Source: an uncultured Anaeromyxobacteraceae bacterium (lineage in GTDB: Bacteria > Myxococcota_A > UBA9042 > DTJE01). From it: a DNA stretch of 64,000 bases. Made by a program: the position numbers and the translations under genes. The notes under the pieces are model-generated. The model saw nothing but the letters and a program-made list of their open reading frames with translations, had not been told where the DNA came from and did not search any database. Below are positions 25,475 through 46,009 of this stretch, piece by piece; position 1 is the stretch's first letter, and every line of letters starts with the position of its first letter. The DNA is taken from NCBI GenBank assembly GCA_964522105.1, contig CAZFVA010000001.1:80343-144342 (forward strand), in the 5' to 3' direction.

Positions 25475-26923
25475 ATGAAAGACATGAAGAACCTGCGATT
25501 TGCGATGTTACCGGCAGTCCTTATGGCCTTAAGTTTCGGCACAGGCTGCAGTTCATCGAATGTACCTGCTGATACGACTGTCCATCAGGATATTGTGGCT
25601 GACACAGGGACAGATACCGTTGCCGATGCGACCGACACAAATGTCCCGGACACAACTGACACAGCTTCGCCGGATGTTGTCACACCTGATGACAGCACCA
25701 TTGCTGATGATACCGAACCGGGCGATACCGCGGTTGACGCTTCCGACACCACGGACACAACACCTGAATTTGTCTGGGCTTCCGGCTGCGAAGGCAGCGG
25801 CACCGGCGCAGCGTGGACAATGATCGAAGACCATACTTTCCTGCGCGGCCCGCTGATTCAGATGTCCGACAGAAACACTGTCACCGTCGTGTGGCGCACC
25901 GCAGTCCGAAGTGACAACGAAGGCTGCGTTGACTACGAAGTCGACAGCGAAACGCTGACGGCATGTGGCATGGCCGACAAAAACGGCCAGTATGAAATCA
26001 CGCTGAATGACCTGCCGGTGGAAACTGAAATCACATACTCGGCGCGGGTTGGCGACGTGAAAACCGGTGATCTGACGTTCAGGACAATGCCGAACACCCC
26101 GAAGCCTATGAAATTTGCTGTATTTGCCGACGCCCACAACAACTTCGAAAACCTGCAGAAGATGACGGCCGTCGCGCTTGCCGAAGGCGTTGACTTCGCG
26201 TTCGGCGTCGGCGATTTCGTTCATCAGGCTGAAACCATTCAATATGACGAGTTATTTCAGGGATTCCAGGATCTTGGAAGCCGCGTAAACATCTGGAGCG
26301 TCATCGGCAATCATGACTCGGGCAGCGAAGAATACTTCGGTTCCTTCGTCGTCCCGGCAGGCAGCCAGGACCCGTATGACATCGAGCACGGATACGCGGA
26401 AGGCTGGTGGGATCGGCGCATCGGAAACGTCTGGCTTGGCGGCGGCTGGGTCCGCGACTTTTACATCTCGGGTCCCGATTCGGACTTCGGCGAAGTCGGC
26501 TGGTTCAGGCAGCAGTTCCAGAAAAACCATTTCAAGACGGCTCAGTGGAAGCTGTTCTTCATCCATGAACCGCCGTACTGCCAGGGCTGGGGCGGATGCA
26601 ATTATGACGGCGAATCGTGCCTGCGCCCGTCGCTGGTTCCGATGGCGGCACAGAACGGCATTCAGGCCACCTTCCACGGTCACATGCACGGTTATGAATA
26701 TGGCGAATCGGAAGGCGTCAAAATATTCATACCGGGCGGTCTGGGCGGCGAACTGGACTACTTCTGCGAAAACAGCACGCCCCCGCAGCCATGGGCATAC
26801 AATTACGTCCATAACTTCGCCATCGTAGAGACGAATTGCGACAAGATGATCGTCCGCTTCATGGGCCTTGACGGTGTTGAACTTGACCGCGTTGAAGTAC
26901 CGTATGTCGCCCCGACCGAATAG
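25475..26923 (+). CDS. Secreted metallophosphoesterase (calcineurin-like) lipoprotein, paralog 1
   Basis: Lipoprotein signal ..LSFGTGC and a D/T-rich tether. The metallophosphoesterase motifs appear in order: FAVFADAHNN (DxH), GVGDFVHQ (GDxx), VIGNHDSG (GNHD/E), FHGHMHGYEYG (GHxH). Confidence 0.8.
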   Translation: MKDMKNLRFAMLPAVLMALSFGTGCSSSNVPADTTVHQDIVADTGTDTVADATDTNVPDTTDTASPDVVTPDDSTIADDTEPGDTAVDASDTTDTTPEFVWASGCEGSGTGAAWTMIEDHTFLRGPLIQMSDRNTVTVVWRTAVRSDNEGCVDYEVDSETLTACGMADKNGQYEITLNDLPVETEITYSARVGDVKTGDLTFRTMPNTPKPMKFAVFADAHNNFENLQKMTAVALAEGVDFAFGVGDFVHQAETIQYDELFQGFQDLGSRVNIWSVIGNHDSGSEEYFGSFVVPAGSQDPYDIEHGYAEGWWDRRIGNVWLGGGWVRDFYISGPDSDFGEVGWFRQQFQKNHFKTAQWKLFFIHEPPYCQGWGGCNYDGESCLRPSLVPMAAQNGIQATFHGHMHGYEYGESEGVKIFIPGGLGGELDYFCENSTPPQPWAYNYVHNFAIVETNCDKMIVRFMGLDGVELDRVEVPYVAPTE

Positions 26924-26942
26924 CCCGCTTAGAGGTAACACA

Positions 26943-28322
26943 ATGAAAGACCTGCTGAATTTGCGACCGGTCGTGTTGATGGTGTTATTGGTATCAGTTT
27001 CCATGGTTTCAGGCTGTGCTTCGTCAGTGACTCCGACAGACACAGGCCGGGATATCATTGCCGACACTGCCGTTGCCGACACTGCCGTTGCAGATACCGC
27101 CGTTGCCGACACTGCCGTTGCAGATACTGCCATTGCCGATACTGCCATTACCGATACAACCCATGAATTTCAATGGGCTTCCGGCTGTGAAGGAACCGGC
27201 ACCGGCGCGACGTGGACATTAATCGAAGACCACACGTTCCTGCGCGGCCCCATGATACAGATGTCTGACTGGAACACGGCTACCATCCTGTGGCGAACCG
27301 CCGTCAAGTCCGACGAAGAAGGCTGCGTGGATTACGAAGTCGGCGCAGAAACCTTTACGAAGTGCGGGACTTCAGACAAACGTGGTCAGTATGAAATAAC
27401 GCTGGATGACCTGCCGGCCGCGACGGAAATCACCTATTCGGCCAGAGTTGGCGACATCAAGACGACCGATCTGACCTTTCGGACAATGCCTGACCGCCCG
27501 GCCCCGATGAAATTCGCTGTGTTTGCGGATGCGCACTGCAACATTGAAAATCTGAAGAAAATGACCGCGGTGGCACTGGCCGAAGGAGTCGATTTTGCGT
27601 TCGGCATTGGCGATTTCATCAATACCCCGGAAGACGTCCAGTTCGACCAGGTGTTTGAAGGACTCCAGGACCTTGGAAGCCGCGTAAATATCTGGGCCGT
27701 GCTTGGTAATCATGACACCGGCGGCATGTATTTCTACAACGCTTTTGCACTGCCGAAGGGCAACACGATCGAACCCGACTACAGCAATGGCTATGGCGAG
27801 GCCTGGTGGGACAAGCGGATCGGCAACGTCTGGCTTGGCGGCGGGTGGGTCATTCCATTCCTTTTCGGGGAGCCTGAAGGGGTTGAAAGCGAACAGAGCT
27901 GGTTCAGGCAACGCTTCCAGGAAGATCACTTCAAAACGGCTCAGTGGAAACTGTTTTTCATACACGAACCGCCTTACTGTCAGGGCTGGGGCGGATGCAA
28001 CTATGACGGCGAAGAGTGCCTGCGCGAATCCCTGATGCCGATGGCAGCCGAAAACGGTATCCAGGCCACCTTCCACGGGCACATGCACGGCATAGAGTAC
28101 GGCGAAACGAACGGCGTCAAGGTGTTCATCCCGGGTGGAGTCGGCGGAGATCTGGACTACTTCTGCGAAAACAGCTCACCACCGCAGCCATGGGCATACA
28201 ACTACGTCCACAACGTCGCAATCGTCGAAACGAACTGCGACAAGATGGTCGTCCGCTTTCTGGGCCTCGATGGCGTTGAACTTGACCGCGTCGAAGTCCC
28301 ATGGGTCGAACCGACGCAATAA
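26943..28322 (+). CDS. Secreted metallophosphoesterase (calcineurin-like) lipoprotein, paralog 2 with tandem-repeat tether
   Basis: It has the same motif set as paralog 1: FAVFADAHCN, GIGDFINT, VLGNHDTG, FHGHMHGIEYG. After the tether the two proteins are largely collinear and appear roughly two-thirds identical by eye. The signal is MKDLLNLRPVVLMVLLVSVSMVSGC. The tether is a perfect (ADTAV)n repeat. The track ORF starts at 26868 and the likelier start is the ATG at 26943. Confidence 0.8.
   Translation: MKDLLNLRPVVLMVLLVSVSMVSGCASSVTPTDTGRDIIADTAVADTAVADTAVADTAVADTAIADTAITDTTHEFQWASGCEGTGTGATWTLIEDHTFLRGPMIQMSDWNTATILWRTAVKSDEEGCVDYEVGAETFTKCGTSDKRGQYEITLDDLPAATEITYSARVGDIKTTDLTFRTMPDRPAPMKFAVFADAHCNIENLKKMTAVALAEGVDFAFGIGDFINTPEDVQFDQVFEGLQDLGSRVNIWAVLGNHDTGGMYFYNAFALPKGNTIEPDYSNGYGEAWWDKRIGNVWLGGGWVIPFLFGEPEGVESEQSWFRQRFQEDHFKTAQWKLFFIHEPPYCQGWGGCNYDGEECLRESLMPMAAENGIQATFHGHMHGIEYGETNGVKVFIPGGVGGDLDYFCENSSPPQPWAYNYVHNVAIVETNCDKMVVRFLGLDGVELDRVEVPWVEPTQ
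27058..27156 (+). repeat. In-frame tandem repeat, 15-bp unit (gccgacactgccgtt and variants), about 6.5 copies, encoding (ADTAV/ADTAI)n
   Basis: Seen directly in the sequence: ccgacactgccgttg x2, cagataccgccgttg, ccgacactgccgttg, cagatactgccattg, ccgatactgccatta. It sits in the lipoprotein tether of paralog 2. The opposite strand yields the artefactual ORF MAVSATAVSAT.... Confidence 0.9.
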
Positions 28323-30196: not shown

Positions 30197-30356
30197 CAAT
30201 ATCAAGGGCACGCCCCGGGGCGCTGGAACAATCACATCGCTTCCCACAAACACAAAACCGCCATAAACACATCTACCCGATACGCAAATGCAGTGTTATC
30301 ATTTCGAAGTTCTTCCGTGTCGCCCCCAGCACCCTGACAGAATCCCGGAGGCTACG

Positions 30357-32705
30357 ATGCGTTCATCATTGCGAACTCTGTCGGTCTGTAAAGTAATTAT
30401 TCTGGCAGTAACTGCCGGTTTCGCCATCGGCGGCTGCAGTAACTGGCAGCAGGCCGAAGATACCGGATTCGACGCTGAAGATTCCGCTGACACAATGAAT
30501 GAACTGGTAATTCCTTCGGATGATGGCCGCGATTCTACCGGCGAAGAAATCGATTCGACTGACCTGTTTGACGACACCATACAATTGGACACCGATGACA
30601 GCGCGGACGCCGACGACGATGTTGAAGCACGCGACACGTTGGACACCACCAGCAATCCTGACATTCCAGATACTTACGACACTGCCGACGTCGATTCCGA
30701 CCACGGTCTTCCTGACTGTCCGGGCGCCCCGGGCTGCGAGTGCACCACCGGGGATGACTGTGAAAATGGCCTGTGCGTGCCGACAAACGACAAATCATTC
30801 TGCGGTCAATTGTGCTGGCTCGATTCAGGGTGTCCCGAGGGCTGGATCTGCGAAGAGATCAACCTCGGCGACAAGACGCTGCGGGCCTGTATCTACAAGT
30901 TCCCGACGCTTTGCCAGCCGTGCCGTGAGGATTCGGAATGCCTGCCGCAATATGGGGCCAGGGACCGCCGTTTTGTCTGCGTCGATACAGGCGCAAACGG
31001 CAAATTCTGCGGGACGGGATGCGCTGCGGAACCGGATTGCCCCGAAGGATACAAGTGCGCGGATGCCCCGACGAACGCCGGCCATTTTCTGCAATGCCAG
31101 CCCGATAACGGCGAATGTGCATGTACTGAAAAATTCATCGAAGGCGGTTACGAAACAGACTGCTTCCGCACAAACGACATCGGGACATGCCCCGGAACCA
31201 GAACGTGCGACATGGAATGCTCGGCAAAATCTGCCGAAGCCGAGATATGCAACCTGCAGGACGACGACTGCGACGGCGCGACCGATGGCGAGAACACTTC
31301 AGATTGCCAGACATTCTTCTATGATTTTGACAACGACGAATACGGAACCGACGACTCGAAGTGCCTGTGCGAAACGACGGGCGAATATCGGGCAACTGTT
31401 GAAGGCGACTGCAATGACAACGACCCGGAAGTGAAGCCGGGAAACTTTGAAATCTGCAACGACGGCAAAGACGACAACTGCGACGGACTGACTGACGTGG
31501 AAAACTCGCAGGAATGTAAGAATTATTTCCTGGACGTTGACGGCGACGGATACGGCCTTTCGGAATACAAGTGCCTTTGCGCTGCATCAGGAAACTACAG
31601 AGCCACCCGCGCTTGTTTCGACAGTGGCTCGTGTGACTGCCTGGATACCGACCTGGAAGTTAACCCCGGACGCATTGAAATCTGTAACAGCGGCAAAGAC
31701 GACAACTGCGATGCTCTGGCAGACGGTGAAAACTCACAAGGTTGCACAAAGTTCTACCGCGACGCAGATAACGACGGATATGGGACCGGCGAGTACAAGT
31801 GTCTGTGCGCGGCAGTCGGCCAGTACAAGATTACGTCTGCCTGCGTCGTTGGCGTCTCGTGCGACTGCAACGACTTCGACCCCGACATGAACCCGGGATT
31901 GCAGGAAGTCTGTGGCAACGGCAAGGACGACAACTGTGACGGGTCCCAGGACACCGAAAACGCGACTTACTGCATCGACTATTTCCTGGATGCTGACGAC
32001 GACGGATTCGGCGTAACAGGAATGAAAAGATGCCTGTGCTACGAGGAAGGATTGTATCGAGTCCTGGGCGGAGGCGACTGCAACGATAACAACGCGGCCA
32101 TGAATCCCAATAACCCTGAAATCTGCAACAATTCTATCGATGACGATTGCGACGGGTATGCCGACAACACGTCGGGACAACCGAACCAGAAGTGCAACGT
32201 GTGCGGCGACGGCCTGATAGACAACGGGGAGGTCTGCGACCACGGAAACTCGAATCCCGGACTGGCGTGCGCTTCTGACTGCAAATCTATCCCGTGCTCC
32301 AACGAAGCTGATGCGTCCATAACTCAGATAAACGGCAGGAACTGCTACTGGCGATCGACGTTGGTCGTGGGGCGATCGGATGCAGCCTCAAGATGCGAAT
32401 CCCGACTTGGATACCTTGTCCGAATGGAAACATCAAACGAGCGGGACTGGGTCTTTGGAAACATGATCTTTCCACCGGGAAGCGGAAGCAAAGTGTGGGT
32501 CGGCGCTCAGAAGTGCGGCGGCAACTGGTGCTGGGATAACGGCCAGATCGTTGGTTCTGAATGGGATTGGAGCCCCGGAGAGCCCAGCGGAAACGGGGAC
32601 TGCGCACAATCATCTGGCAACGGCGCACGCTACGACGACGTCGGCTGCAACAGCGCCAACCGCGACTACGTGTGCGAAAGACCGACCGTCGGAACCTCGC
32701 GCTGA
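30357..32705 (+). CDS. Giant Cys-rich secreted lipoprotein with ~5 MopE-like putative metal-binding repeats and a C-terminal C-type-lectin-like domain
   Basis: Lipoprotein signal MRSSLRTLSVCKVIILAVTAGFAIGGC, then an acidic D/T/S tether. About five ~65-aa repeats follow, of the form C(N/D)D(N/F)DP..PG..E(I/V)CN(D/S)GKDDNCDG..D.EN...C..Y(F/Y).D.D(G/N)DGYG....KCLC. This matches the CNGxDDDCDG 'putative metal-binding motif' abundant in Myxococcota. The C-terminus has ..CYWRSTLVVGRSDAASRCESRLGYLVRMETSNERDWV..W.. ARYDDVGCNSANRDYVCE, the pattern of a C-type lectin fold. Confidence 0.8.
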   Translation: MRSSLRTLSVCKVIILAVTAGFAIGGCSNWQQAEDTGFDAEDSADTMNELVIPSDDGRDSTGEEIDSTDLFDDTIQLDTDDSADADDDVEARDTLDTTSNPDIPDTYDTADVDSDHGLPDCPGAPGCECTTGDDCENGLCVPTNDKSFCGQLCWLDSGCPEGWICEEINLGDKTLRACIYKFPTLCQPCREDSECLPQYGARDRRFVCVDTGANGKFCGTGCAAEPDCPEGYKCADAPTNAGHFLQCQPDNGECACTEKFIEGGYETDCFRTNDIGTCPGTRTCDMECSAKSAEAEICNLQDDDCDGATDGENTSDCQTFFYDFDNDEYGTDDSKCLCETTGEYRATVEGDCNDNDPEVKPGNFEICNDGKDDNCDGLTDVENSQECKNYFLDVDGDGYGLSEYKCLCAASGNYRATRACFDSGSCDCLDTDLEVNPGRIEICNSGKDDNCDALADGENSQGCTKFYRDADNDGYGTGEYKCLCAAVGQYKITSACVVGVSCDCNDFDPDMNPGLQEVCGNGKDDNCDGSQDTENATYCIDYFLDADDDGFGVTGMKRCLCYEEGLYRVLGGGDCNDNNAAMNPNNPEICNNSIDDDCDGYADNTSGQPNQKCNVCGDGLIDNGEVCDHGNSNPGLACASDCKSIPCSNEADASITQINGRNCYWRSTLVVGRSDAASRCESRLGYLVRMETSNERDWVFGNMIFPPGSGSKVWVGAQKCGGNWCWDNGQIVGSEWDWSPGEPSGNGDCAQSSGNGARYDDVGCNSANRDYVCERPTVGTSR

Positions 32706-32769
32706 CCAGTCACAAAATCATAATCATCATATGAAGGAAACAGGAAGCATTACCAGCCATGGCGGCTCT

Positions 32770-34560
32770 TCAAACAAACCGACGTCTAGTGACCAGAATG
32801 GCGAAAAGAATCGTACAGAGGATGACTTCGGCCACAGGCAGCGAGCGGCCCGTAGAATTCGCCTGACAGCCGCTTGACGACTTGCCGGCACATTCTGCCG
32901 ATGCGGAACATTTGTCGTTCGATGTTTTCGCATTACCGTCATCGCACAATTGACCTTCTTCCAACATGCCATCTTCCGGACATGTCAATCCTGTTCCATT
33001 GCAGTATTCCGGTTTGTCGCATGGAAAAGCAGGCTCCCGGCATACATGGCTGCTGGGAAAAATGTTGTCGTTCGGGCAATTTATCGATGTTCCGGTGCAG
33101 TATTCCGGGGCGTCACACAAATCGGTCGCAGGACGGCACTCAGCGGTTTTTGATCTTATAAGATCGATCGGGCATCCCGTATCTGAGCCTGTACAAAATT
33201 CCGCAACATCACAGACCCCGACGGCGGAACGACATTCAAAGGTGGAACTGCGCACTGCATCTGACGGACATACCGGTGATGAGCCCGAACAATATTCGGC
33301 CTCATCGCAGGCCCCGACAGACTTTCGACATTCATACGAAGTCGCTTGAAACGCGTCGGGCGGACAACTGTCACTTGAGCCTGAGCAGAATTCAACAATG
33401 TCACACTTCCCGCCCGAACCGCGACACGGTTCAACGTCAGTCAGATAATAGTATCCGTCACAACAATCACCAGACACGCAGTCGGCATCAGCCTGAATAG
33501 CCTGCAGCCAGTCATACACATTGCCGGACAATCTGGTTACGCGAGACGCGGGGTAACACCCACCGCCATATCCTGAAACTACACCAACAACGTAGTTCAC
33601 CTTATCCTGATTCACCCAGACACCCGACCCGCTTTGACCGGAACAGACGTCGATCGTGCTGCAGATGAGATTCGCAGTGATACTCGCGGAACTACCCGAA
33701 GTAGTTATCATTTTGTTGGCATCCCAGTCGAATGGATATCCGGCAGTTGTGTGATCGAGCGATGTCAGTTCAGTTGAATCGAGTGCCGAATAACCAACCG
33801 TACCGGTCGTCTTTCCTATCGGTACGGCCAGAGCCAGAAGACCAATGTCATAATCCCAGTTATGGTTGACAGTCCAACCCTCCGGGGAAAAATACCACCT
33901 GGCATAAGTCTCGCCATAAGGCTTCAACATGTAATTTAATCCGGGAGTAACGACGATTAAATCAGGCCAGCGCTCCAAATCGGCGTCGAAAACGCAATGG
34001 CCGGCCGTAAGAACAAGACTTTCTGCAATAAGAATTCCAGTGCAGACATACCAGTCAGAACCGTACCGCATCGAAAGGCTGACAACAGCCGAAAAAGGAA
34101 ACACCTGCGTATCTTTGACCCTGACCCGCTCATCATCACTACCGACTATGTTGCAGGTACCGTCGCTTCTTTTTTGAAGGACCCTGTCAACATTGAGATC
34201 TTCTACGGTCGGCACTGTTGATTGCCGAAGATCAAACTTCTTCGATGCCGGTGCCCACGGATTCCTGGAAAAACCAGGATCATCAGGACGTAAAGCCGGT
34301 TTCCCAGATGGAAACGGCATTGGTTTGATATCCCACGGCGGTTTTTCCATCCAGTCGGGCAATTCATAAACCACGGTCGCCGCTTCGGGATCAGGCAGTT
34401 TTCCTTCAACTAACCTGCGTTCCGTACTTGCTTCCGGCAAAGCGGATGAACCTTGTGACAACACCGAATGCTGCATGGCCATCGAGCCGTCTTCAAAACA
34501 CACAATCATCAGGATGGACGCCGTGACAGTCGCCGCTGTCAGGCGGCAAAGCTTCTTCAT
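32770..34560 (-). CDS. Secreted trypsin-like (S1) serine protease with five tandem ADAM-disintegrin-like Cys-rich repeats and a MYXO-CTERM-like tail
   Basis: Signal MKKLCRLTAATVTASILMIVC. S1 catalytic contexts are LTAGHCV (His), DYDIGLLAL (Asp) and DVCSGQSGSGVWV (Ser). Five 32-aa repeats such as CRPATDLCDAPEYCTGTSINCPNDNIFPSSHV and CREPAFPCDKPEYCNGTGLTCPEDGMLEEGQL follow. They match the ADAM disintegrin C-terminal consensus CRx5CDxPEYC(N/T)GxSxxCPxD. Next is a CDDGN..C Myxo-type Cys repeat. The C-terminus SGCQANSTGRSLPVAEVILCTILFAILVTRRRFV is a Cys motif, then a TM helix, then RRR. Confidence 0.8.
   Translation of the reverse strand: MKKLCRLTAATVTASILMIVCFEDGSMAMQHSVLSQGSSALPEASTERRLVEGKLPDPEAATVVYELPDWMEKPPWDIKPMPFPSGKPALRPDDPGFSRNPWAPASKKFDLRQSTVPTVEDLNVDRVLQKRSDGTCNIVGSDDERVRVKDTQVFPFSAVVSLSMRYGSDWYVCTGILIAESLVLTAGHCVFDADLERWPDLIVVTPGLNYMLKPYGETYARWYFSPEGWTVNHNWDYDIGLLALAVPIGKTTGTVGYSALDSTELTSLDHTTAGYPFDWDANKMITTSGSSASITANLICSTIDVCSGQSGSGVWVNQDKVNYVVGVVSGYGGGCYPASRVTRLSGNVYDWLQAIQADADCVSGDCCDGYYYLTDVEPCRGSGGKCDIVEFCSGSSDSCPPDAFQATSYECRKSVGACDEAEYCSGSSPVCPSDAVRSSTFECRSAVGVCDVAEFCTGSDTGCPIDLIRSKTAECRPATDLCDAPEYCTGTSINCPNDNIFPSSHVCREPAFPCDKPEYCNGTGLTCPEDGMLEEGQLCDDGNAKTSNDKCSASAECAGKSSSGCQANSTGRSLPVAEVILCTILFAILVTRRRFV
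32947..33426 (-). repeat. Five tandem ~96-bp coding repeats (disintegrin-like modules)
   Basis: The protein-level 32-aa periodicity maps to this interval. Repetitive opposite-strand ORFs (..PVQYSG.. patterns at 32966..33349) reflect the nucleotide-level repetition. Confidence 0.7.
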
Positions 34561-34635
34561 GTCAAAATCCTTTTTCAGAGTGCCCTGGCAAAGGACAATC
34601 ATCTGGTAGTGTAAGTGCCGGTAACCTGGCACCAA

Positions 34636-38315: not shown

Positions 38316-39590
38316 TTAAAATCTTGTGTCGCAGACACGCGTAACGATAGTGGTGAAGCATCCTGCATCAACAAAACTGGAACCGTTTGCATACTGTATC
38401 TTCGCCACTTCCCATCCACGAATCAGAAGCTGGTCCCAGACTTTGATTTCACGTATCAAACCTTCGATTTCACTGTCAAAAGGAACTACGTGGATGTTGG
38501 CTGCCAGGTCATCGGGCCCCCACTGCCTGCTGCATTCAATCATGGCGCGGTGGCCGTTCTGCGAGACCGAGCAATCGGTAGAAGCAATGACACCGGAAGC
38601 CACAAAAACATCAGATATCAAGGGGTCTTCGCCTTCGTAATAGCGCCTGGCGCGTACGACCCCGTCGAAGTCGGTCGGCACATCCTTTTCCAGTTCAATC
38701 GTCCATTCCGGAGTAATCAACAGCGGGGCCGGATCCTGCCCGAAAGTGCCTGAACAAGGTGGATACCGGTACACAGGACGAGCGGCGATTTCTGTCGTAG
38801 CCTTCAAATAGTCTTCACCTGACGAATAGTACACTTCAAGGGTATCGTTGAAGTCAATCTGGTCATCAGGACTGAGTCCAAGACCGATTTTTACGTATTC
38901 TAAAGACCCGATCTGGAAAGGGGCCTCTGGTTCAACAGACTTCAGCGTCAGACCATTAATCTTGTTTTTCAGACGGACAGCGGTTACCTCGTGAGATATA
39001 TCTGAATAGTTCACACAGGTTACAGATTGGCTGGCTGTTTCATCAACGCGCGCACCGGGAAAAGTAACAATCCTGGGGCTGCACAAAATATCCTGATCAC
39101 ACTGACCACGAACGACCAGCGGAATCTGCAACGAATACGGCTCGCAGTCCAGCTCCACGTCCAGCAGGGCGTATGAGGAGCAATCGCAACCGTTAAGATC
39201 TGCCGACCTGGGGCGGAAAGACACCGGGATCTCAAACGTCTGGCCGGCTTCAATATTGGCGGCTGAATCATCAGTACCAAGCTTGAAAGTCCCGCAGGTT
39301 GAATCAATCACAGTCAGCACAAAGTGATCAATCCGACCGCGTGCACCACCGATATTTGTAAATTCAATGGTGAAATCCAGCGGTTTGGTGCGATCTTGCG
39401 GCACACCGAAGTCAACCCTGTCGACCGAAGGCTCTATGCTGGCGACCCCGGTCGGCCCGCCCCCGGAATCGCAACCGGTTGCGGAAACAAGCACCGTACT
39501 GACCAGCAGAACCATCCAGCAGGCACCTGACAATTTTGTCGAAACGGATCCTTTCACAGCCACCCCGCATAAGTACAACTGCCACGACAA
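38316..39590 (-). CDS. Secreted lipoprotein of unknown function (beta-rich, 424 aa)
   Basis: Lipoprotein signal ..WMVLLVSTVLVSATGC. The remainder is long and beta-strand-like with several Cys pairs. No catalytic motif was recognised. It is immediately upstream of pilT on the same strand. Confidence 0.65.
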   Translation of the reverse strand: MSWQLYLCGVAVKGSVSTKLSGACWMVLLVSTVLVSATGCDSGGGPTGVASIEPSVDRVDFGVPQDRTKPLDFTIEFTNIGGARGRIDHFVLTVIDSTCGTFKLGTDDSAANIEAGQTFEIPVSFRPRSADLNGCDCSSYALLDVELDCEPYSLQIPLVVRGQCDQDILCSPRIVTFPGARVDETASQSVTCVNYSDISHEVTAVRLKNKINGLTLKSVEPEAPFQIGSLEYVKIGLGLSPDDQIDFNDTLEVYYSSGEDYLKATTEIAARPVYRYPPCSGTFGQDPAPLLITPEWTIELEKDVPTDFDGVVRARRYYEGEDPLISDVFVASGVIASTDCSVSQNGHRAMIECSRQWGPDDLAANIHVVPFDSEIEGLIREIKVWDQLLIRGWEVAKIQYANGSSFVDAGCFTTIVTRVCDTRF

Positions 39591-39602
39591 TCATATTCAA
39601 TT

Positions 39603-40691
39603 TCAGACAGACACGCCGAATTCAGATGACATCAAACGCCTGAAGGCCTCTTTATCAAGAGCTTTTTCAAAGGCGGCTACCGGCTCGACCAGACCTGTCC
39701 TGACAAGGTTCAGAATACATTCGTCCATCCCGATCATACCCTGTGCGCCACCGGTCCTGATCTGGTTATCAATCAAATGAGCCTTGTTTTCCCTGATCAT
39801 GTTCGGCAGGCCCATCGTCCAGAACAGCAGTTCATAAGCCGGAACACGCCCGCCCGTCTTCCTTGGCAGAAGTTGCTGGGCCAGAATGCCGCGCAGCACC
39901 CCGCCGAACATGCTGCGTACTGCGTCCTGTTCATGAACGGGAAACACGTTAATCAGGCGATCCATGGTCCTGGACGCGCTGTTCGTGTGCATCGTTGAAA
40001 GGACCAGAATCCCGGTCTCGGCAGCCTGCAAAGCCATTGAAATGGTTTCAAGATCGCGCATTTCGCCGACCAGAATGATGTCAGGATCTTCACGCACGGC
40101 AACACGAAGCGCGTCGGCAAAAGACACCGCCGAATGACCGATTTCGCGCTGACTGATGCGACACTTTTTGTTTTCATAAACAAATTCGACAGGGTCTTCA
40201 ATCGTCAGGATGTGCAGCCTGCGCGTGTCGTTCAAGTGCTTAATCAGAGCGGCCAGCGTAGTCGACTTGCCGGACCCGGTCGGCCCTGTGACCAGCACAA
40301 GCCCGCTCGGATATTCAACCAGCTTCTTCAGGCGCTCGGGCATGCCGAGATCGGCCAGCGTCACTGTGGCATTCGGAATATGTCGAAAGACCGCAGCCGG
40401 ACCGTTTTCCTGCCTGAAAAGATTGACGCGGAAGCGCCCTACCCCTTCGCACTGGTAAGCCATGTCAAGGTCACCAGTTTCTTCCCAGTGCTTCCACTTC
40501 TCAGTCGGCACTATCGGCTTCATGCCAGCCATGAAGTCATCGGTAGATAAAGGCCTGATCCGAAGGGGCGAAAGGTCGCCTGATATCCTGTAAGTCGGCG
40601 GATTTCCAACAACATAATGCAAGTCGGATGCGCCCATTTCAAGGCCAAGCTCAAGCAGGGACGAAACGTCAGAAAGTACTGGATGAGCCAT
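39603..40691 (-). CDS. pilT: Type IV pilus retraction (twitching motility) ATPase PilT
   Basis: The ORF is near-collinear with canonical PilT: ASDLHYVVGNPPTYRISGD, GVGRFRVNLFRQENGPAAVFRHIP, GLVLVTGPTGSGKSTTLAALI, ILTIEDPVEFVYENKKCRISQREIG, REDPDIILVGEMRDLETISMALQAAETGILVLSTMHT, and the C-terminal AHLIDNQIRTGGAQGM. Confidence 0.9.
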   Translation of the reverse strand: MAHPVLSDVSSLLELGLEMGASDLHYVVGNPPTYRISGDLSPLRIRPLSTDDFMAGMKPIVPTEKWKHWEETGDLDMAYQCEGVGRFRVNLFRQENGPAAVFRHIPNATVTLADLGMPERLKKLVEYPSGLVLVTGPTGSGKSTTLAALIKHLNDTRRLHILTIEDPVEFVYENKKCRISQREIGHSAVSFADALRVAVREDPDIILVGEMRDLETISMALQAAETGILVLSTMHTNSASRTMDRLINVFPVHEQDAVRSMFGGVLRGILAQQLLPRKTGGRVPAYELLFWTMGLPNMIRENKAHLIDNQIRTGGAQGMIGMDECILNLVRTGLVEPVAAFEKALDKEAFRRLMSSEFGVSV

Positions 40692-42553
40692 TACGTCTTC
40701 TCCCTTTCTGTCCATGCGCGGAAGGCGTCCTTGTCGATAGCGCGCGATATTGCATCTTCAACACGGATTTTTCCGGACTCCAGAAGCTTGATAAGGGCAT
40801 TGTCCATCGTCTGCATTCCGTCCACCCGGCCAAGCTGCACAGACGCCTTGATCTGATTGACCTTGTTTTCCCTGATCAATGTTGAAATGGCCGAATTGAC
40901 GACCATCAACTCAACGGCAGCAATGCGGCCCTTGCCGTCGGCCCGTGGAACCAGCGTCTGCGCCAGAATCATGCGCAGCGAATCGGCCATGGAAATGCGA
41001 ATCTGGGGCTGCTCCTGCCCGGGGAATGATTCAATCAGGCGCATGATTGCACCGACGGCGTCAGGCGTGTGCATCGTTGCAATAACGAGATGGCCTGTTT
41101 CCGATGCCTCCAGGACGCGACGCATCGTTTCAGTGTCGCGCATCTCGCCTATTACAATGACATCAGGGTCTTCACGCAGACCGGAACGCAAACCGGCGGC
41201 AAAAGACTGTGTATGTTTACCGACTTCGCGCTGATTGACGATGCCCATCGCGCTTGGAAAGACGTACTCAACCGGGTCTTCAAGCGTCAAAACGTGCCGG
41301 GGAGTGCGCTCGGATATCTCGCGGACAAAAGCGGCCATCGTCGAACTTTTGCCAGATCCGGACCTGCCGGTCACAAGCACCAGGCCCTGCTGCAGGTGGA
41401 TAATGTCTTTGACTCTTCCTGGAAGTCCAAGGGAATCAAGACGGGGGCTTTTAGAAGCAATCAACCGGATGACCGACGCCATTCCGCGCCTTTCGCAGAA
41501 CACATTCACACGGTGCCGACCAACGCCTTCAACCACGTGCGAGAAGTCAGCATCCTGCATATGTTCGTAGCGGCTGGCCAGGTGCAGCGGCATTATTTCG
41601 CGAATCGCTGCTTCAGCCGCTTCCGGCGACAGTGGCAACCCGACATCGACCAGAGCCCCGTGAATCCTGAATGCAACTGGAAGACCCGGAATAATATGTA
41701 CGTCCGAGGCACCTTCAAGTCTGGCCCGGGTCAAAAGTTCATCAAGAAAGCCACGGGTCTTTACCGCACCTGCTGCCTGCGCGTTCAGTGCCGTTTCATC
41801 GACAGGTTTACCAATAAGCTGCCCGACGCTGACCATCGACGCGACAGCCGCATTTCTGACGTCGGCATCCGGGTCAGAACCAGCAATCCGCTCAAGATAC
41901 GGCATGACCTTCTGATTTTTCATCAGGCCAAGGGCCGCGACAGCCTCTTTTCTGATGACTGAATCACTGTCCTGAATAAACCGCCCGGTTGCGCCGATGG
42001 CGGCCTGGTCCCCGGACTGTCTGATAAGTGAAATGGCATCCCATCGTAAATCTTCCAGGGCCAGAGCTTCGACCAGAATCTCAATCGCTTTCGGGCCGCC
42101 GGTCATGAAAGCAGCATCAAGGGCCAGGACCGCAAGAAGGCGGTCTTTTGAATTCAAGCAGAACCTCAAAGCCGGAAGAACATCCTTGTGAAGGATAGTC
42201 CTGGCACAGCTCATCAACAGCCGCCCATCTACACCTTCAGCTTTTGCAAGTTCAATAATGACTACCGGAGCCAGATCGTTCGCCAGTCGGCGAAGCATCC
42301 TGTCCAGCCTTTCGCGTGAAGAAACGAGCAGGTTACGGCGAATCCGCAGCGCAGCCAGCAGGGGCGATTCCCCGGGCAACGCCGGGGATTGAATCAGGAC
42401 CTTGGCGGCCTTGTTACGCTCACGATCGTCAGGACTGAACAGTGCCCGTACAAGGTCTTCTGCATCTTTGAAGCCGCCAATGCCAGCAGCAGATTTGCCG
42501 TCACCCGGTCCGTCAGCTTTGCCAGGCATAATCCCCCTTTCAGACCTGAACAC
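40691..42553 (-). CDS. PilT-family ATPase paralog with ~270-aa N-terminal HEAT/ARM-like repeat extension
   Basis: The C-terminal 350 aa form a PilT core: GVGRHRVNVF, GLVLVTGRSGSGKSSTMAAFV, LTLEDPVEYVF, REDPDVIVIGEMRDTETMRRVLEASETGHLVIATMHT. The N-terminal half shows repeated helical-pair units (..DSDSVIRKEAVAALGLM.., ..DPDADVRNAAVASMVS..), typical of HEAT repeats. Its stop overlaps the pilT start (TAATG). Confidence 0.8.
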   Translation of the reverse strand: MFRSERGIMPGKADGPGDGKSAAGIGGFKDAEDLVRALFSPDDRERNKAAKVLIQSPALPGESPLLAALRIRRNLLVSSRERLDRMLRRLANDLAPVVIIELAKAEGVDGRLLMSCARTILHKDVLPALRFCLNSKDRLLAVLALDAAFMTGGPKAIEILVEALALEDLRWDAISLIRQSGDQAAIGATGRFIQDSDSVIRKEAVAALGLMKNQKVMPYLERIAGSDPDADVRNAAVASMVSVGQLIGKPVDETALNAQAAGAVKTRGFLDELLTRARLEGASDVHIIPGLPVAFRIHGALVDVGLPLSPEAAEAAIREIMPLHLASRYEHMQDADFSHVVEGVGRHRVNVFCERRGMASVIRLIASKSPRLDSLGLPGRVKDIIHLQQGLVLVTGRSGSGKSSTMAAFVREISERTPRHVLTLEDPVEYVFPSAMGIVNQREVGKHTQSFAAGLRSGLREDPDVIVIGEMRDTETMRRVLEASETGHLVIATMHTPDAVGAIMRLIESFPGQEQPQIRISMADSLRMILAQTLVPRADGKGRIAAVELMVVNSAISTLIRENKVNQIKASVQLGRVDGMQTMDNALIKLLESGKIRVEDAISRAIDKDAFRAWTEREKT

Positions 42554-42636
42554 ACCGAATCACGATGCGTCCGAATCCACATCAGCCATTCCCCCCGGAC
42601 CGACCGACATGTCTGGATTATAAGATCAAAATGACA

Positions 42637-45258
42637 TTACTTGCAGGAAACACGGCCCCGGAGTTTCAAAATGTCGAACCACAGGACACAGACAATGCCT
42701 GCCGTCATGCAACAGACGGCGTCAAACATGTGTGGTCTGGCAAAATGAAACAGATTCTGCGTGAATGGAACGCAAAGGATGACGGGAAGCAACACAGCCG
42801 TACCCAGGAAAACCCATTTCAGGGCCTTGTTCGGAACACGCAGCATCGACCACAAAGTCCTGGTCCACGACCTGTTGACCATGATAATTGTCAGAAAAGA
42901 AACGACCAGAGTCGCGAACGTCAGCGCCCGGGCCGCGTCAACGCTGTGATCCCTGCGGGAAAGCACAAACACGGTCAGACACACCGCAAGCACACTGAGG
43001 CCCTGAAAAAGGGCAAGCCTCATGGTACGCCACGAAAACAGATGCTCATCAGGACTTCTTGGCAGACGCTTCATTACATCGGACTCCGGATCTTCAGCTT
43101 CGAAAATCAGGGAGCATGACGGATCAATTATCAATTCCAGAAATACGATATGGATCGGCATCAGCAACAGCGGCCATCCGCCGAAGAAGACCGGAATCAT
43201 CGACAGCCCGATGATCGGGATGTGGACAGCAACTATGAACATGACCGCCTTTTTGATGTTGTCAAACACCCGGCGGCCAAGGCGAACGGCATCAACTATC
43301 GACGAAAAATCATCGTTCAGAAGCACCAGCGAAGCCGACTCACGGGCAACGTCTGTACCACGTCCGCCCATAGCAATCCCAATATGCGCAGCCTTCAAGG
43401 CCGGAGCATCATTGACGCCATCCCCGGTCATGGCGACAACTTCACCGTTCGCCTTCAGCGCTGTAACTATCCGCAGCTTCTGTTCTGGAACGACGCGGGC
43501 AAAAACCCTGATATGGCCTATCTTTCCGGCCAGTTCACTGTCACTCATCATATCAAGTTCAGGGCCGGTAATGACGTCGTCGCCATCTGCAATACCGGCC
43601 TGACGCGCAATGCTGAGCGCCGTGGCAGGGTAATCACCAGTGATCATTATGACTTTGATACCTGCGGCCCGACATTCAGCAACTGCGGCAGGTACGGTGT
43701 CCCGCAACGGATCTTCAAAACCAAGCAAGCCGGCGTATTTCAATTCAAGATCATGATGTTTTTCGGGTAGTTCCACGATTCCGGAAACCACCCGCGCCAC
43801 CGCCAGAACCCGCAGGCCCTGTGACGCAAGCACACGGACCTCGGCCGACACCTTCTGACGATCCGTTTCCGACAGATGACACAGGTCGGCAATGGCCTCG
43901 GGGGCACCTTTAGACGCAACAACAATCTGATTATCTTCAGTCTGCCACGCTTGACTGACCGCAAGCATTTCAGGTGACAGCGGATATTCCTTTACCAGTG
44001 ACCAACCGGGATGCAGATGTTCGGTACCGGCAAGAAAGCGGACGCCGATTTCATGCAGGGCGCGCTCCATCGGGTCAAACGGGTCTTTCTTACTGGCAAG
44101 AATCGCGTTTTCAAGAAGACCATGCATATCTTCGGGAAGTGCCGTCAGGGATGGATTTATCTGAAGCGCCTGATCCGCAATTGCCAGTTGCCGGACCGAC
44201 ATCTGATTCAACGTTAAAGTACCTGTCTTATCAACGCACAATACCGTAGCTGCGCCAAGCGTCTCGACCGCAGGCATGCGCCTGGTCAACACGTTGCTGC
44301 GCGAAATTCGCCACGCTCCAAGCGCCAGAAACACAGTCAGAACTACCGGGAATTCTTCTGGAATCGTGGCCATCGCCATCGCTATACCGGCCAGCAGCCC
44401 TTCTTTCCACGCCTGCGCGTCCCCACCGCGTGTCAACCCGTAAACAACCACGACAACTGCACACGCCGAAAGCCCTATTATCGCGAACAATTTGACCAGA
44501 CGGCCGGTTTCACGCTGCAGAAGCGTCGGTTCTTCCTTAACGGTCGAAAGAGCCTTTCCAATTTTGCCCAGTTCAGACGCGTTGCCGGTCGCATAGACTT
44601 CGGCAATACCCTGCCCGGCCGTAATAAGCGTCCCTGAAAATACGGACGGCAGATCGTCACCACCAGGATTGTCGCCCGACTTACCGGGCACAATCGGCGC
44701 GTCGGAAGGAAGCTTTCTGACCGGGACCGACTCACCCGTAAGAAGTGACTCGTCCGCGCAAAGATTGATACCACGGCGCAAGATCGCGTCGGCCGGGACC
44801 CGATCACCTTCTGAAAGAACAATAAAATCGCCGGGTACGACTTCCCGACCTGCAATACGCCGATGCACCCCGTCACGGATAACAAGTGCGCGCGGGCTTG
44901 AAAGGTCACGAAGGGCGTCAAGCGCATGTTCGGTTCGCCGTTCCTGAACGATCGTTATGCCCATGACAACAAAGACAAAGCCAAGCAGCATCAGTGCATC
45001 AACCGGCTCGCCCATGAAAAGATAAAGAAGGCCCGCTGCAACAAGCATCAGAAACATCGGCTCTTTGAAGACTTCAAAGACGATTGCCAGCAGTCCATGG
45101 TTTTTCTGCGCAGGAAGTTCGTTATATCCGTCACGCTCAAGTCGCGCCCTGGCTTCGGCTTCAGAAATACCGCCAATGTTATCCAGATCCATCACAGAAA
45201 GGCGGCTACCACCTGACTCCACCGATGACCTGTTTGATCCTGATGCTGCACCGTTCAT
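42637..45258 (-). CDS. P2-type cation-transporting ATPase (Ca2+/Mg2+ pump family)
   Basis: 873 aa. P-type motifs include the phosphorylation site CVDKTGTLT, the hinge region MTGDGVNDAPALKAAHIGIAMG, and a TGES-equivalent LTGESVP. The layout is 10-TM. The N-terminus ..DGYNELP.. is typical of type IIA/B pumps. Confidence 0.9.
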   Translation of the reverse strand: MNGAASGSNRSSVESGGSRLSVMDLDNIGGISEAEARARLERDGYNELPAQKNHGLLAIVFEVFKEPMFLMLVAAGLLYLFMGEPVDALMLLGFVFVVMGITIVQERRTEHALDALRDLSSPRALVIRDGVHRRIAGREVVPGDFIVLSEGDRVPADAILRRGINLCADESLLTGESVPVRKLPSDAPIVPGKSGDNPGGDDLPSVFSGTLITAGQGIAEVYATGNASELGKIGKALSTVKEEPTLLQRETGRLVKLFAIIGLSACAVVVVVYGLTRGGDAQAWKEGLLAGIAMAMATIPEEFPVVLTVFLALGAWRISRSNVLTRRMPAVETLGAATVLCVDKTGTLTLNQMSVRQLAIADQALQINPSLTALPEDMHGLLENAILASKKDPFDPMERALHEIGVRFLAGTEHLHPGWSLVKEYPLSPEMLAVSQAWQTEDNQIVVASKGAPEAIADLCHLSETDRQKVSAEVRVLASQGLRVLAVARVVSGIVELPEKHHDLELKYAGLLGFEDPLRDTVPAAVAECRAAGIKVIMITGDYPATALSIARQAGIADGDDVITGPELDMMSDSELAGKIGHIRVFARVVPEQKLRIVTALKANGEVVAMTGDGVNDAPALKAAHIGIAMGGRGTDVARESASLVLLNDDFSSIVDAVRLGRRVFDNIKKAVMFIVAVHIPIIGLSMIPVFFGGWPLLLMPIHIVFLELIIDPSCSLIFEAEDPESDVMKRLPRSPDEHLFSWRTMRLALFQGLSVLAVCLTVFVLSRRDHSVDAARALTFATLVVSFLTIIMVNRSWTRTLWSMLRVPNKALKWVFLGTAVLLPVILCVPFTQNLFHFARPHMFDAVCCMTAGIVCVLWFDILKLRGRVSCK

Positions 45259-45352: not shown

Positions 45353-46009
45353 ATGGCACCAGCAAAAAACAGACTTGAGCCAAGAAAACCGCCAGTTCAG
45401 GGACGTTCACGAGACACGGTGGAGCTGATTCTGTCGGCGGCTGCTCAGATTTTTGAATTACACGGCTACGCCGCCGGAACTACGAACAGAATCGCCGAAC
45501 GTGCCGGCGTTTCGATAGGGACGCTTTACCAGTACTACCCAAGTAAAGAAGCTATAGCGGTCGCGCTGGTCGAAAGGCACATTGATGAAACATCACGGCG
45601 ACTTGACGAGTGGGTGGCTCACATGATTGCCGAACGGCATGACCTTCGCGCAGCGCTGCACGACTATGTAAACGCCATGCTGGACATGCACTTCGGGCGA
45701 CCGCGACTTCAACACATACTGCTGGAAGAAACGCCGTTGCCCGACAGGGTACATCTGGCGCTGGTGGAATCGGAACGCCTTGCTGCATCGACCGTTGGAC
45801 GTTTTCTTCGCATGTTTTCGCAGGTCCACCACGGCGACCCCGAGCGGGCCGCCTTCATCATGGTGCAGACTGTTGAAAGTCTGACGCACAGATTTGCGGC
45901 CCATCCCGACGAACAACAGATAATCGGACGGATCGAATTTGTGGCAGAACTTGTTAATATGCTTGACTATTATCTGACGGCAGAAGACGCCGGCCCGAAG
46001 ACCGATTGA
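45353..46009 (+). CDS. TetR-family transcriptional regulator
   Basis: N-terminal TetR HTH is RSRDTVELILSAAAQIFELHGYAAGTTNRIAERAGVSIGTLYQYYPSKEAI. It is divergent from the P-type ATPase gene. The track ORF 45065 is trimmed to the ATG at 45353 because upstream sequence overlaps the ATPase on the opposite strand. Confidence 0.8.
   Translation: MAPAKNRLEPRKPPVQGRSRDTVELILSAAAQIFELHGYAAGTTNRIAERAGVSIGTLYQYYPSKEAIAVALVERHIDETSRRLDEWVAHMIAERHDLRAALHDYVNAMLDMHFGRPRLQHILLEETPLPDRVHLALVESERLAASTVGRFLRMFSQVHHGDPERAAFIMVQTVESLTHRFAAHPDEQQIIGRIEFVAELVNMLDYYLTAEDAGPKTD

What the first reader, a model, noticed from the sequence alone, without database searches (positions are those of the whole stretch)
39603..45258. 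pilT translationally coupled to a HEAT-repeat-extended PilT paralog, downstream of a P2-type cation pump with its own TetR
The stop of the 620-aa paralog overlaps the pilT start (TAATG). The paralog carries about 270 aa of HEAT/ARM-like repeats in front of a complete PilT ATPase core. Such N-terminal extensions are not part of canonical retraction ATPases and could tether the motor to a partner (another motility or secretion system). The pump gene lies only 83 nt upstream on the same strand and is divergently paired with a TetR regulator.
Basis: partly seen in the sequence, partly recalled or inferred. Interest (0 to 1): 0.5.

Follow-up and report, generated by a model that had tools for sequence, protein, structure and literature searches.

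The report
HEAT-domain PilT paired with partner PilT
Two overlapping genes encode a pilus-retraction-type ATPase carrying a folded HEAT-repeat domain at its front and a dedicated second ATPase of the same family; the pair is conserved in many uncultured Myxococcota-like bacteria and has not been described, while the neighbouring ion pump is only a chance neighbour.

Summary
On the minus strand, a 612-aa protein (40691-42529) has about 260 aa of HEAT-type alpha-solenoid followed by a complete PilT ATPase core. Its TAA overlaps the ATG of a 362-aa PilT-family gene (39603-40691).

The extension is not an annotation artefact. It matches Pfam HEAT_2, is conserved in 27 aligned homologues, and folds with pLDDT above 90.

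HEAT-PilT is a real family, with at least 36 clusters of a ~610-aa class and 133 of a ~830-aa class. All that carry a name come from MAGs or metagenomes, mostly named Myxococcota or "Deltaproteobacteria".

In all 11 loci that extend downstream, a partner PilT follows within -14 to +19 nt. Partner and HEAT-PilT divergences track each other (r = 0.89). Both keep the catalytic motifs. Neither has the C-terminal extension of PilU, and the partner has a changed AIRNLIRE motif.

The P-type pump and TetR are correctly identified, but they are absent from every related locus.

Best reading: a co-inherited two-motor module that works like PilT/PilU, with the HEAT array as an adaptor. The mechanism is inferred. 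It may correspond to M. xanthus MXAN_6705/6706, but this was not tested. I class it as a new variant of a known kind, of moderate interest.

The parts
40691..42529 (-). HEAT-PilT gene, 612 aa from the ATG at 42529 (the mechanical ORF starts at the GTG at 42553). PilT-family hexameric-ATPase core with an N-terminal HEAT-repeat domain.
41743..42529 (-). N-terminal domain, residues 1-262. Residues 1-22 are low-confidence; 23-254 form 15 helices in a HEAT/PBS-lyase-type alpha-solenoid.
40691..41742 (-). PilT ATPase core of HEAT-PilT. Walker A is GRSGSGKSS (Arg replaces the usual Pro). Asp box LEDPVEY, Walker B DPDVIVIGEMRD, His box ETGHLVIATMHT, and AISTLIRE (6 of 8 positions of AIRNLIRE).
   Evidence: sequence; invariant columns; alignment to A. 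aeolicus PilT; motif census.
40689..40704 (-). Gene junction. GGGAG (40704-40700) lies inside the last codons of HEAT-PilT. TAA (40693-40691) overlaps the ATG (40691-40689) by one base.
   Evidence: Junctions of -14 to +19 nt in 11 loci.
39603..40691 (-). Partner PilT (PilT2), 362 aa. Canonical Walker A GPTGSGKST and Walker B. The His box lacks the first His (ETGILVLSTMHT), and GLPNMIRE stands in place of AIRNLIRE.
   Evidence: (a distinct clade at 57-69% identity, then a drop). (342 bits to P. aeruginosa PilT 3jvu)..
38316..39515 (-). Cys-rich lipoprotein (399 aa), 87 nt downstream of PilT2. It may be a third gene of the operon, but only in the closest subclade.
   Evidence: Lipobox Cys and 12 invariant Cys in 4 homologues. 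Homologues follow the pair in L004, L005 and L084, with a 4-nt overlap in L084. Only weak DUF1573/ASH/choice-of-anchor-D/CFAP74 similarity. Absent in L085-L090.
42530..42636 (-). Spacer between the pump stop and the HEAT-PilT start. It holds the SD-like AAAGGGGGA (42540-42532) and a TATAAT hexamer (42622-42617). No terminator-like site was called.
   Evidence: Whether the pair has its own promoter or is read through from the pump was not determined.
42637..45258 (-). P-type (type II-like) cation ATPase. It is a neighbour, not part of the conserved module.
   Evidence: (best match PMR1-type Ca ATPase, 487 bits, below the 798 cut-off; the generic P-type model is passed). Absent at all related loci.
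45353..46009 (+). TetR-family regulator, divergent from the pump. A neighbour, not part of the module.
   Evidence: TetR_N, TetR_C_15. (gene calls of 218 or 277 aa). No homologue at related loci.

Best explanation
The two overlapping genes form a conserved, co-inherited module that encodes two different, catalytically competent PilT-family ATPases made together and working together. It would act as an accessory retraction-type motor for a type IV pilus (or closely related) machine encoded elsewhere in the genome.

By analogy with the stacked PilT-PilU double ring, the canonical-length partner (PilT2) would engage the platform protein. HEAT-PilT would form a second ring, with its six N-terminal HEAT solenoids acting as docking surfaces. 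These could hold the partner ring or recruit a regulator or localisation factor.

Shown: domain architecture, intact motifs, obligate adjacency, tight junctions, and co-divergence of the two genes.
Inferred: physical interaction, ring order, the pilus as substrate, and the adaptor role of the HEAT domain.

The P-type pump and TetR are unrelated neighbours.
For: 1. Both proteins pass the PilT/PilU family model. They match solved PilT structures best.
2. Walker A Lys, the Asp box, the Walker B Glu and the second His-box His are invariant in both families.
3. The HEAT domain is conserved and confidently folded.
4. In 11 of 11 loci that extend downstream, HEAT-PilT is followed at -14 to +19 nt by a PilT. 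This spans about 37-100% identity and both length classes.
5. The partners form their own clade. Partners of the 830-aa class fall in a sister group, mirroring the HEAT-PilT tree. Pairwise divergences correlate at r = 0.89 (0.96 within the 610 class), Mantel p about 2e-4.
6. The two families carry complementary signatures. HEAT-PilT keeps ETGH and A[IV]xxLIRE but has GR[SAT]GSGK. The partner keeps GPTGSGKST but has ETG[ILV] and GLPNMIRE.
7. Fused or tandem PilT-PilT proteins of about 720 aa, with a divergent first module and a canonical second one, are widespread. This shows that two PilT modules in one complex is a recurring design, in the same order as here.
8. Precedent: PilT and PilU form stacked hexamers, with PilT bridging PilU to PilC (preprint 10.1101/2025.10.30.685630). 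M. xanthus has an adjacent paralogue pair, MXAN_6705/6706, conserved across Myxococcales, and deleting MXAN_6706 gives a partial S-motility defect (PMC13584747).
Against:
- Neither protein has the C-terminal extension that mediates PilU-PilT contact, so the PilT/PilU interface cannot simply be transferred.
- In the NJ tree the fused PilT-PilT modules are not specifically related to either member of the pair, so they are an analogy only.
- No pilin, PilC, PilB or PilMNOPQ gene lies in the 64-kb window or in the flanks of ten related loci. The substrate machine is therefore unidentified.
- Co-divergence can also arise simply because two adjacent genes are inherited vertically together.
- Orthology with MXAN_6705/6706 was not established.
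- The tree is neighbour-joining without support values.
Confidence: 0.55

Rival explanations
1. The two paralogues co-assemble into a single mixed hexamer (for example alternating subunits) rather than two stacked rings. The complementary motif changes would make asymmetric active sites, and only some subunits would carry HEAT arms.
For: Stoichiometric co-production is implied by the overlapping stop/start. The signature changes are complementary: Walker A Arg in one protein, loss of the first His-box His in the other. The two genes co-diverge strongly.
Against: Solved PilT-family rings in the PDB hits are homomeric, and the documented two-motor case is stacked rings. The cores are only about 43% identical. 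Nothing in the data distinguishes a mixed ring from stacked rings.
Confidence: 0.15
2. The genes are merely tandem paralogues that are co-regulated. Each forms its own hexamer and acts independently, at different times or on different pilus systems. The HEAT domain would only regulate or localise its own ATPase.
For: Multiple independent PilT paralogues are common. M. xanthus and G. sulfurreducens each have several (PMC13584747, PMC5065972). Adjacency and co-divergence follow from vertical co-inheritance alone.
Against: Adjacency is strict in 11 of 11 loci, across two deeply split classes at about 40% core identity, and junctions are mostly overlapping. This is more than is usually kept for independent paralogues. 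The partner clade is specific to these loci.
Confidence: 0.17
3. The pair powers something other than a type IVa pilus, for example another type IV filament-like or envelope machine. In the closest subclade this could involve the downstream Cys-rich lipoprotein. Other lineages have a ClpA/B-like AAA+ protein upstream, which could point to a protein-remodelling role.
For: No T4P genes lie nearby in any locus. The lipoprotein gene overlaps PilT2 by 4 nt in L084 and is conserved in 4 loci. A ClpA/B-like gene sits 16-90 nt upstream in L085 and L087. Both AIRNLIRE-like motifs deviate from the PilT consensus.
Against: Both proteins score above the PilT/PilU family cut-off and far below the DotB, GspE, PilB and TraJ cut-offs. 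In well-studied species, pilT and pilU often lie away from other pil genes (my own knowledge). The lipoprotein and the Clp-like gene are each limited to a few loci.
Confidence: 0.1
4. The ATPase pair is functionally tied to the upstream P-type cation pump and its TetR regulator, for example calcium-dependent control of pilus retraction through co-transcription.
For: Same strand, a 107-nt spacer with no terminator-like site called. Calcium modulates T4P-dependent motility in M. xanthus (PMC13584747).
Against: Pump, TetR and TerC are absent from all ten related loci, including the syntenic L084. The spacer has its own SD and a TATAAT hexamer. The pump's substrate is unassigned; it falls below every equivalog cut-off.
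Confidence: 0.03

Closest known systems
Canonical PilT retraction ATPase (e.g. P. aeruginosa PilT 3JVU, A. aeolicus PilT 2EWV)
   Different: HEAT-PilT adds about 260 aa of HEAT solenoid and has Arg in Walker A (GRSGSGK). PilT2 has GLPNMIRE in place of AIRNLIRE and lacks the first His-box His. The genes do not lie in a pil cluster.
PilT-PilU dual retraction motors (V. cholerae, P. aeruginosa, A. baylyi, M. xanthus PilU = MXAN_1995)
   Same: Two paralogous PilT-family ATPases, often encoded side by side, that cooperate on one machine. Stacked hexamers are documented.
   Different: PilU is defined by a C-terminal extension that wraps PilT, and neither protein here has one. Here the extra domain is N-terminal and is a folded HEAT array. 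Both proteins keep an xxxxLIRE-type motif.
M. xanthus PilT paralogue pair MXAN_6705/MXAN_6706
   Same: Adjacent PilT paralogues described as highly conserved across Myxococcales, one with a longer N-terminus. Deleting MXAN_6706 gives a partial S-motility defect (PMC13584747). In L090 the partner of an 815-aa HEAT-PilT has a roughly 225-aa low-complexity N-terminus, which fits the description of MXAN_6705.
   Different: The paper calls the MXAN_6705 extension intrinsically disordered and mentions no HEAT domain. I could not obtain the M. xanthus sequences, and no hit carried a Myxococcus name. Orthology remains an untested lead.
Extension ATPases with N-terminal adaptor domains (PilB/MshE N-domains, GspE N1 domain)
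   Same: Same ATPase superfamily, with an N-terminal domain added to the N2-CTD core. In those proteins the added domain binds a machine component or a signal (my own knowledge).
   Different: Those are PilB/GspE-clade enzymes. Both proteins here score far below the PilB and GspE cut-offs, and the added domain is a HEAT solenoid unrelated to N1 or MshEN.
PBS-lyase-type HEAT-like repeat proteins (alphaRep designs, CpcE/F, deoxyhypusine hydroxylase, YibA)
   Different: No fusion to a secretion-type ATPase is known among them. The first ~115 residues of the domain are family-specific; generic HEAT proteins match mainly positions 115-245.
Fused tandem PilT-PilT proteins (~720 aa; MAGs named Planctomycetota, Verrucomicrobia, Thermodesulfobacteriota, Nitrospirae)
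   Same: A divergent first PilT module followed by a canonical second one, the same order as the gene pair.
   Different: One polypeptide with no HEAT domain. Neither module groups specifically with HEAT-PilT or its partner in the NJ tree.

Membership tests
PilT/PilU family type IVa pilus ATPase (TIGR01420) | Score above the curated family cut-off over the full model | tested here: met
   HEAT-PilT 391.7 bits and PilT2 407.1 bits against a cut-off of 319.1, covering model positions 2-341 and 3-341 of 343.
PilT/PilU family type IVa pilus ATPase (TIGR01420) | Walker A Lys, Asp box Glu, Walker B Glu, His box | tested here: met
   All are present and invariant in 27 HEAT-PilT and 32 partner or related sequences. 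Exceptions: the partner's first His-box His is replaced by I/V/L/T/C, and the Walker A Pro is Arg in the 610 class.
Canonical PilT (primary retraction motor) | AIRNLIRE motif (defining role recalled from the literature, Aukema et al. 2005, my own knowledge; the motif itself is visible in the PDB alignments) | tested here: not met
   PilT2 has GLPNMIRE where P. aeruginosa has AIRNLIRE. HEAT-PilT has AISTLIRE where A. aeolicus has AIRNLIRE, matching 6 of 8 positions. The variants are family-wide.
Canonical PilT (primary retraction motor) | Retracts pili and is required for twitching or S-motility | not testable with these tools
   Needs genetics in an organism that carries the pair.
PilU (PilT-dependent accessory motor) | Extended C-terminal region that contacts PilT (preprint 10.1101/2025.10.30.685630) | tested here: not met
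   PilT2 aligns 8-350 to residues 2-344 of P. aeruginosa PilT, leaving 12 residues. HEAT-PilT aligns to within about 10 residues of its C-terminus. Both score lower to the PilU structure 9n32 (227 and 211 bits) than to PilT structures.
PilB / GspE / DotB / TraJ-type ATPases | Score above the respective equivalog cut-offs | tested here: not met
   PilB 124 and 144 bits against 676. GspE 154 and 153 against 630. DotB 167 and 130 against 463. TraJ 136 and 137 against 368.
HEAT / PBS-lyase-type helical repeat domain | Pfam HEAT_2 above the gathering score, and a paired-helix solenoid fold | tested here: met
M. xanthus MXAN_6705/6706 pair | Orthology by sequence and synteny | not tested
The only support is the resemblance of the IDR-bearing partner in L090.
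P-type ATPase, type II (neighbouring pump) | E1-E2 ATPase, DKTGT phosphorylation site, and cation ATPase N and C domains | tested here: met
   Pfam domains. CVDKTGTLT and TGES are in the translation. The generic P-type model is passed at 279 bits against 62. No ion-specific equivalog is passed; the best is PMR1-type Ca at 487 against 798.

The most novel reading that the evidence does not exclude
HEAT-PilT and its partner form a new kind of double-ring retraction motor. In it, an N-terminal HEAT solenoid replaces the PilU C-terminal clamp as the ring-to-ring or ring-to-machine coupling device. Alternatively, the HEAT solenoid couples a PilT-type motor to a non-pilus partner. If the M. xanthus MXAN_6705/6706 pair is a member, this module would explain the PilT-independent retraction seen there.
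Probability: 0.25. Interest if true: 0.7.

Novelty: new variant of a known kind. Interest (0 to 1): 0.5.

Why it matters
How several retraction ATPases are coordinated on one pilus machine is an active question. PilT/PilU stacking was only recently modelled, and the roles of the extra M. xanthus paralogues are still open.

This module is a second, independent way of pairing two PilT motors. It is common in uncultured Myxococcota-like bacteria and carries a ready-made protein-binding domain, which gives a direct handle for finding what recruits or regulates the motor.

There is also an annotation point. Databases label both genes simply "PilT" or "PilT/PilU family", which hides the distinct architecture and the obligate pairing.

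Tried and rejected
1. Counting the family with an N-domain profile against 1.84 billion representatives. The list was swamped by giant multi-repeat HEAT proteins. Only P0001, P0074, P0293 and P0387 matched end to end, so it is useless for a count. The figures given (at least 36 and 133 clusters) are lower bounds.

2. The afdb50 fold search, to find named organisms with this architecture, was unavailable.

3. Linking to M. xanthus. Clausen 2009 (PMC2704717) is not held. No supplements are held for the 2026 paper. The third homologue search, with the 815-aa protein, returned only MAG or metagenome names.

4. Literature searches for HEAT with PilT, for an N-terminal extension, and for tandem ATPase domains found nothing relevant.

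5. Structure of the downstream lipoprotein. The single-sequence model has pLDDT 32 and is unusable. The PDB profile search gave only weak CFAP74/ASH hits.

6. PADLOC gave no defence-system match beyond generic P-loop or HEAT noise.

7. Pump/TetR linkage was rejected on synteny.

8. An upstream GTG (42553) for HEAT-PilT and an upstream ATG (40715) for PilT2 were rejected as starts. The favoured starts have SD-like sites, agree with the homologue alignments and match the public gene calls.

9. The promoter/terminator scan gave counts near those of shuffled sequence and nothing decisive in the spacers.


Full report
**1. What is in the sequence**

Three large ORFs lie head to tail on the minus strand between 39603 and 45258. 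They are an 873-aa protein (42637-45258), a 620-aa ORF from a GTG (40691-42553) and a 370-aa ORF (39603-40715).

The stop TAA of the middle gene (40693-40691) shares one base with an ATG at 40691-40689. A GGGAG lies 8 nt upstream, inside the last codons of the middle gene.

The middle gene most likely starts at the ATG at 42529, which is preceded by AAAGGGGGA. That gives 612 aa, the length public gene callers use (P0001, 100% identity). The downstream gene is then 362 aa (P0127).

- HEAT_2 plus T2SSE in the 612-aa protein, and T2SSE in the 362-aa protein. Both exceed the PilT/PilU family cut-off and fall far below the PilB, GspE, DotB and TraJ cut-offs.
- A P-type cation ATPase upstream. It passes the generic P-type model only, so the ion is unassigned.
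- A divergent TetR regulator.

Identical contigs occur in two JGI metagenomes and one SRA assembly. GC content is about 55%.

**2. The N-terminal extension is real**

In an alignment of 27 homologues of the ~610-aa class, the N-terminal 260 residues align throughout. They are 27-38% identical to the window protein across four representative homologues and include invariant residues such as W163, R193, E195, D219 and R225.

AlphaFold2 with this alignment gives mean pLDDT 85. Residues 23-254 form 15 helices at pLDDT about 90.

The ATPase core keeps all the expected motifs:
- the Walker A lysine;
- the Asp box (LEDPVEY);
- Walker B (DPDVIVIGEMRD);
- both His-box histidines (ETGHLVIATMHT).

**3. 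It is a family, and it always comes as a pair**

The first homologue search found two length classes that combine HEAT_2 with T2SSE, one of ~610 aa and one of ~830 aa with more repeats. A search with an 815-aa member listed 120 more.

That makes at least 36 and 133 clusters at 90% identity, both lower bounds. Every name attached to a hit is a MAG or metagenome label: Myxococcota, Myxococcales, Polyangiales, Deltaproteobacteria, Oligoflexia, Thermoanaerobaculia and a few "Alphaproteobacteria". A scan of one genome per species gave four full-length hits, all MAGs named Myxococcales, Anaeromyxobacteraceae or Deltaproteobacteria.

The 610 class has an invariant Arg in Walker A (GR[SAT]GSGK). The 830 class has GP[AS]....

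In every locus that extends downstream, a PilT-family gene follows directly. These loci are the window/L001, L004, L005, L007 and L084-L090. The junction ranges from a 14-nt overlap to a 19-nt gap, and 7 of 11 junctions overlap.

The partners of the 610 class form a tight clade at 57-69% identity to the window protein. After them the score drops sharply.

In a neighbour-joining tree without support values:
- the two HEAT-PilT classes are sisters;
- the 610-class partners form one clade;
- the 830-class partners fall in the adjacent group.

Pairwise divergences of HEAT-PilT cores and partner cores correlate at r = 0.89 over 11 pairs and 0.96 within the 610 class, with Mantel p about 2e-4.

The partners keep the canonical GPTGSGKST and Walker B. 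They have ETG[I/V/L] in place of ETGH, and GLPNMIRE where P. aeruginosa PilT has AIRNLIRE. HEAT-PilT keeps A[IV]xxLIRE. The downstream gene is therefore a dedicated paralogue, not demonstrably the housekeeping pilT.

**4. What is not part of it**

The pump, TetR and TerC have no counterparts at any related locus. The closest syntenic locus, L084, has NifS/NifU on one side and PfkB on the other, as the window does, but lacks these three genes. The pump is a lineage-specific neighbour.

The 107-nt spacer contains a TATAAT hexamer and no terminator-like site. Co-transcription is therefore neither shown nor excluded.

No pilin, PilB, PilC or PilMNOPQ gene lies in the 64-kb window, which is otherwise housekeeping and includes the dcw cluster. 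None lies in the flanks of the related loci either.

A 399-aa protein follows the pair in the window and its three closest relatives, overlapping the partner by 4 nt in L084. It has a lipobox cysteine, 12 invariant cysteines and weak ASH/DUF1573-type similarity. It is absent elsewhere, so it is at most a subclade-specific third gene.

**5. How it most likely works**

The following is shown:
- two different PilT-family ATPases with intact catalytic motifs;
- stoichiometric co-production, which the junction makes likely;
- obligate adjacency and co-divergence over a deep split.

The following is inferred. The two proteins act together on a type IV pilus-type platform encoded elsewhere, in the manner of PilT and PilU. 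PilT and PilU form stacked hexamers, with PilT bridging PilU to PilC (preprint 10.1101/2025.10.30.685630).

Neither protein here has the C-terminal extension that defines PilU and mediates that contact. The coupling device must therefore differ, and the HEAT array is the obvious candidate. It could hold the partner ring or dock a regulator or localisation factor.

Fused or tandem PilT-PilT proteins of ~720 aa also exist, with a divergent first module and a canonical second one, in MAGs named Planctomycetota, Verrucomicrobia and others. They show that two PilT modules in one complex, in this order, is a recurrent design. They are not specifically related to this pair.

I put 0.55 on the cooperative two-motor reading. 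The alternatives are a mixed hexamer (0.15), independent co-regulated paralogues (0.17), a non-pilus machine (0.10) and linkage to the pump (0.03).

**6. Comparison with what is known**

Four literature searches found no description of a HEAT-PilT.

The nearest experimental system is M. xanthus. Its adjacent PilT paralogues MXAN_6705/6706 are reported as highly conserved across Myxococcales. MXAN_6705 has a longer N-terminus called intrinsically disordered, and deleting MXAN_6706 gives a partial S-motility defect (PMC13584747).

In L090, the partner of an 815-aa HEAT-PilT has a low-complexity N-terminus of about 225 aa with VREERLGG-like repeats. This fits the description of MXAN_6705. I could not obtain the M. 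xanthus sequences, so orthology is a lead, not a result.

**7. Verdict**

The finding is best described as a conserved HEAT-PilT/partner-PilT module, a new variant of the known PilT-family retraction motors. Interest is moderate (0.5). It would rise if the HEAT array proves to be the inter-ring coupler, or if the module turns out to be the M. xanthus 6705/6706 system.

Noticed in passing
P0020, P0026, P0036, P0039, P0043, P0060 and others; loci L009, L011-L013, L015, L017, L018, L020-L027, L029-L031 and others: Proteins of about 700-770 aa made of two complete PilT modules in tandem are widespread in MAGs named Planctomycetota, Verrucomicrobia, Thermodesulfobacteriota, Nitrospirae, Eisenbacteria and others. 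The first module has G[AS]TGSGKST and MTGH; the second has the canonical GPTG[SA]GK and ETGH. I found no description of them.
   Followed up: partly
L090 7001-8749 (P0224); also P0198, P0234, P0189: Partner PilTs of the 830-aa HEAT-PilT class can carry a 170-290-aa Pro/Ala/Arg/Glu-rich low-complexity N-terminus with VREERLGG-like repeats. This resembles the published description of M. xanthus MXAN_6705.
   Followed up: partly
L085 4471-6984; L087 202-2553: A ClpA/B-like double-AAA+ protein (Clp_N, AAA, AAA_lid_9, AAA_2) lies 16-90 nt upstream of HEAT-PilT, on the same strand, in two divergent members of the 610 class. It is absent at the other loci and in the window.
   Followed up: partly
L072, L076, L077, L080, L082, L083 (Actinomycetota): In six actinobacterial loci, a homologue of the window's P-type ATPase (27-30% identity) lies about 2-3 kb downstream of a PilT gene. 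This may be lineage synteny rather than a functional link.
   Followed up: no
window 38316-39515 (-): A Cys-rich lipoprotein with a lipobox, 12 invariant Cys and weak ASH/DUF1573/CFAP74-like similarity. It is conserved directly after the pair in the four closest loci. Its function is unknown, and the single-sequence AF2 model failed (pLDDT 32).
   Followed up: partly
window 7973-9499 (+): A Ser/Thr protein kinase with a C-terminal PilZ (c-di-GMP-binding type) domain.
   Followed up: no
window 25475-26923 and 26868-28322 (+): Two adjacent, similar-sized (482 and 484 aa) calcineurin-like metallophosphoesterase genes whose ORFs overlap as listed. This looks like a tandem duplication.
   Followed up: no
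P0086, P0092, P0107, P0436 and about 20 others (830-aa class): In some members the Walker A reads GPA[AS]SGKST. The fourth-position Gly of the usual GxxGxGK is lost, but GxxxxGK[ST] is kept.
   Followed up: no
L088 9445-11591: The partner gene of this Polyangiales MAG is called as a 526-aa protein plus a following 188-aa T2SSE fragment. This could be a frameshift or assembly error, or a split gene.
   Followed up: no
window 30288-34635: A MopE-type metal-binding repeat protein sits next to a trypsin-disintegrin protein. Similar secreted proteins (MopE/lectin, antistasin) flank the pair in L084 and L086, so this neighbourhood is syntenic among relatives.
   Followed up: no
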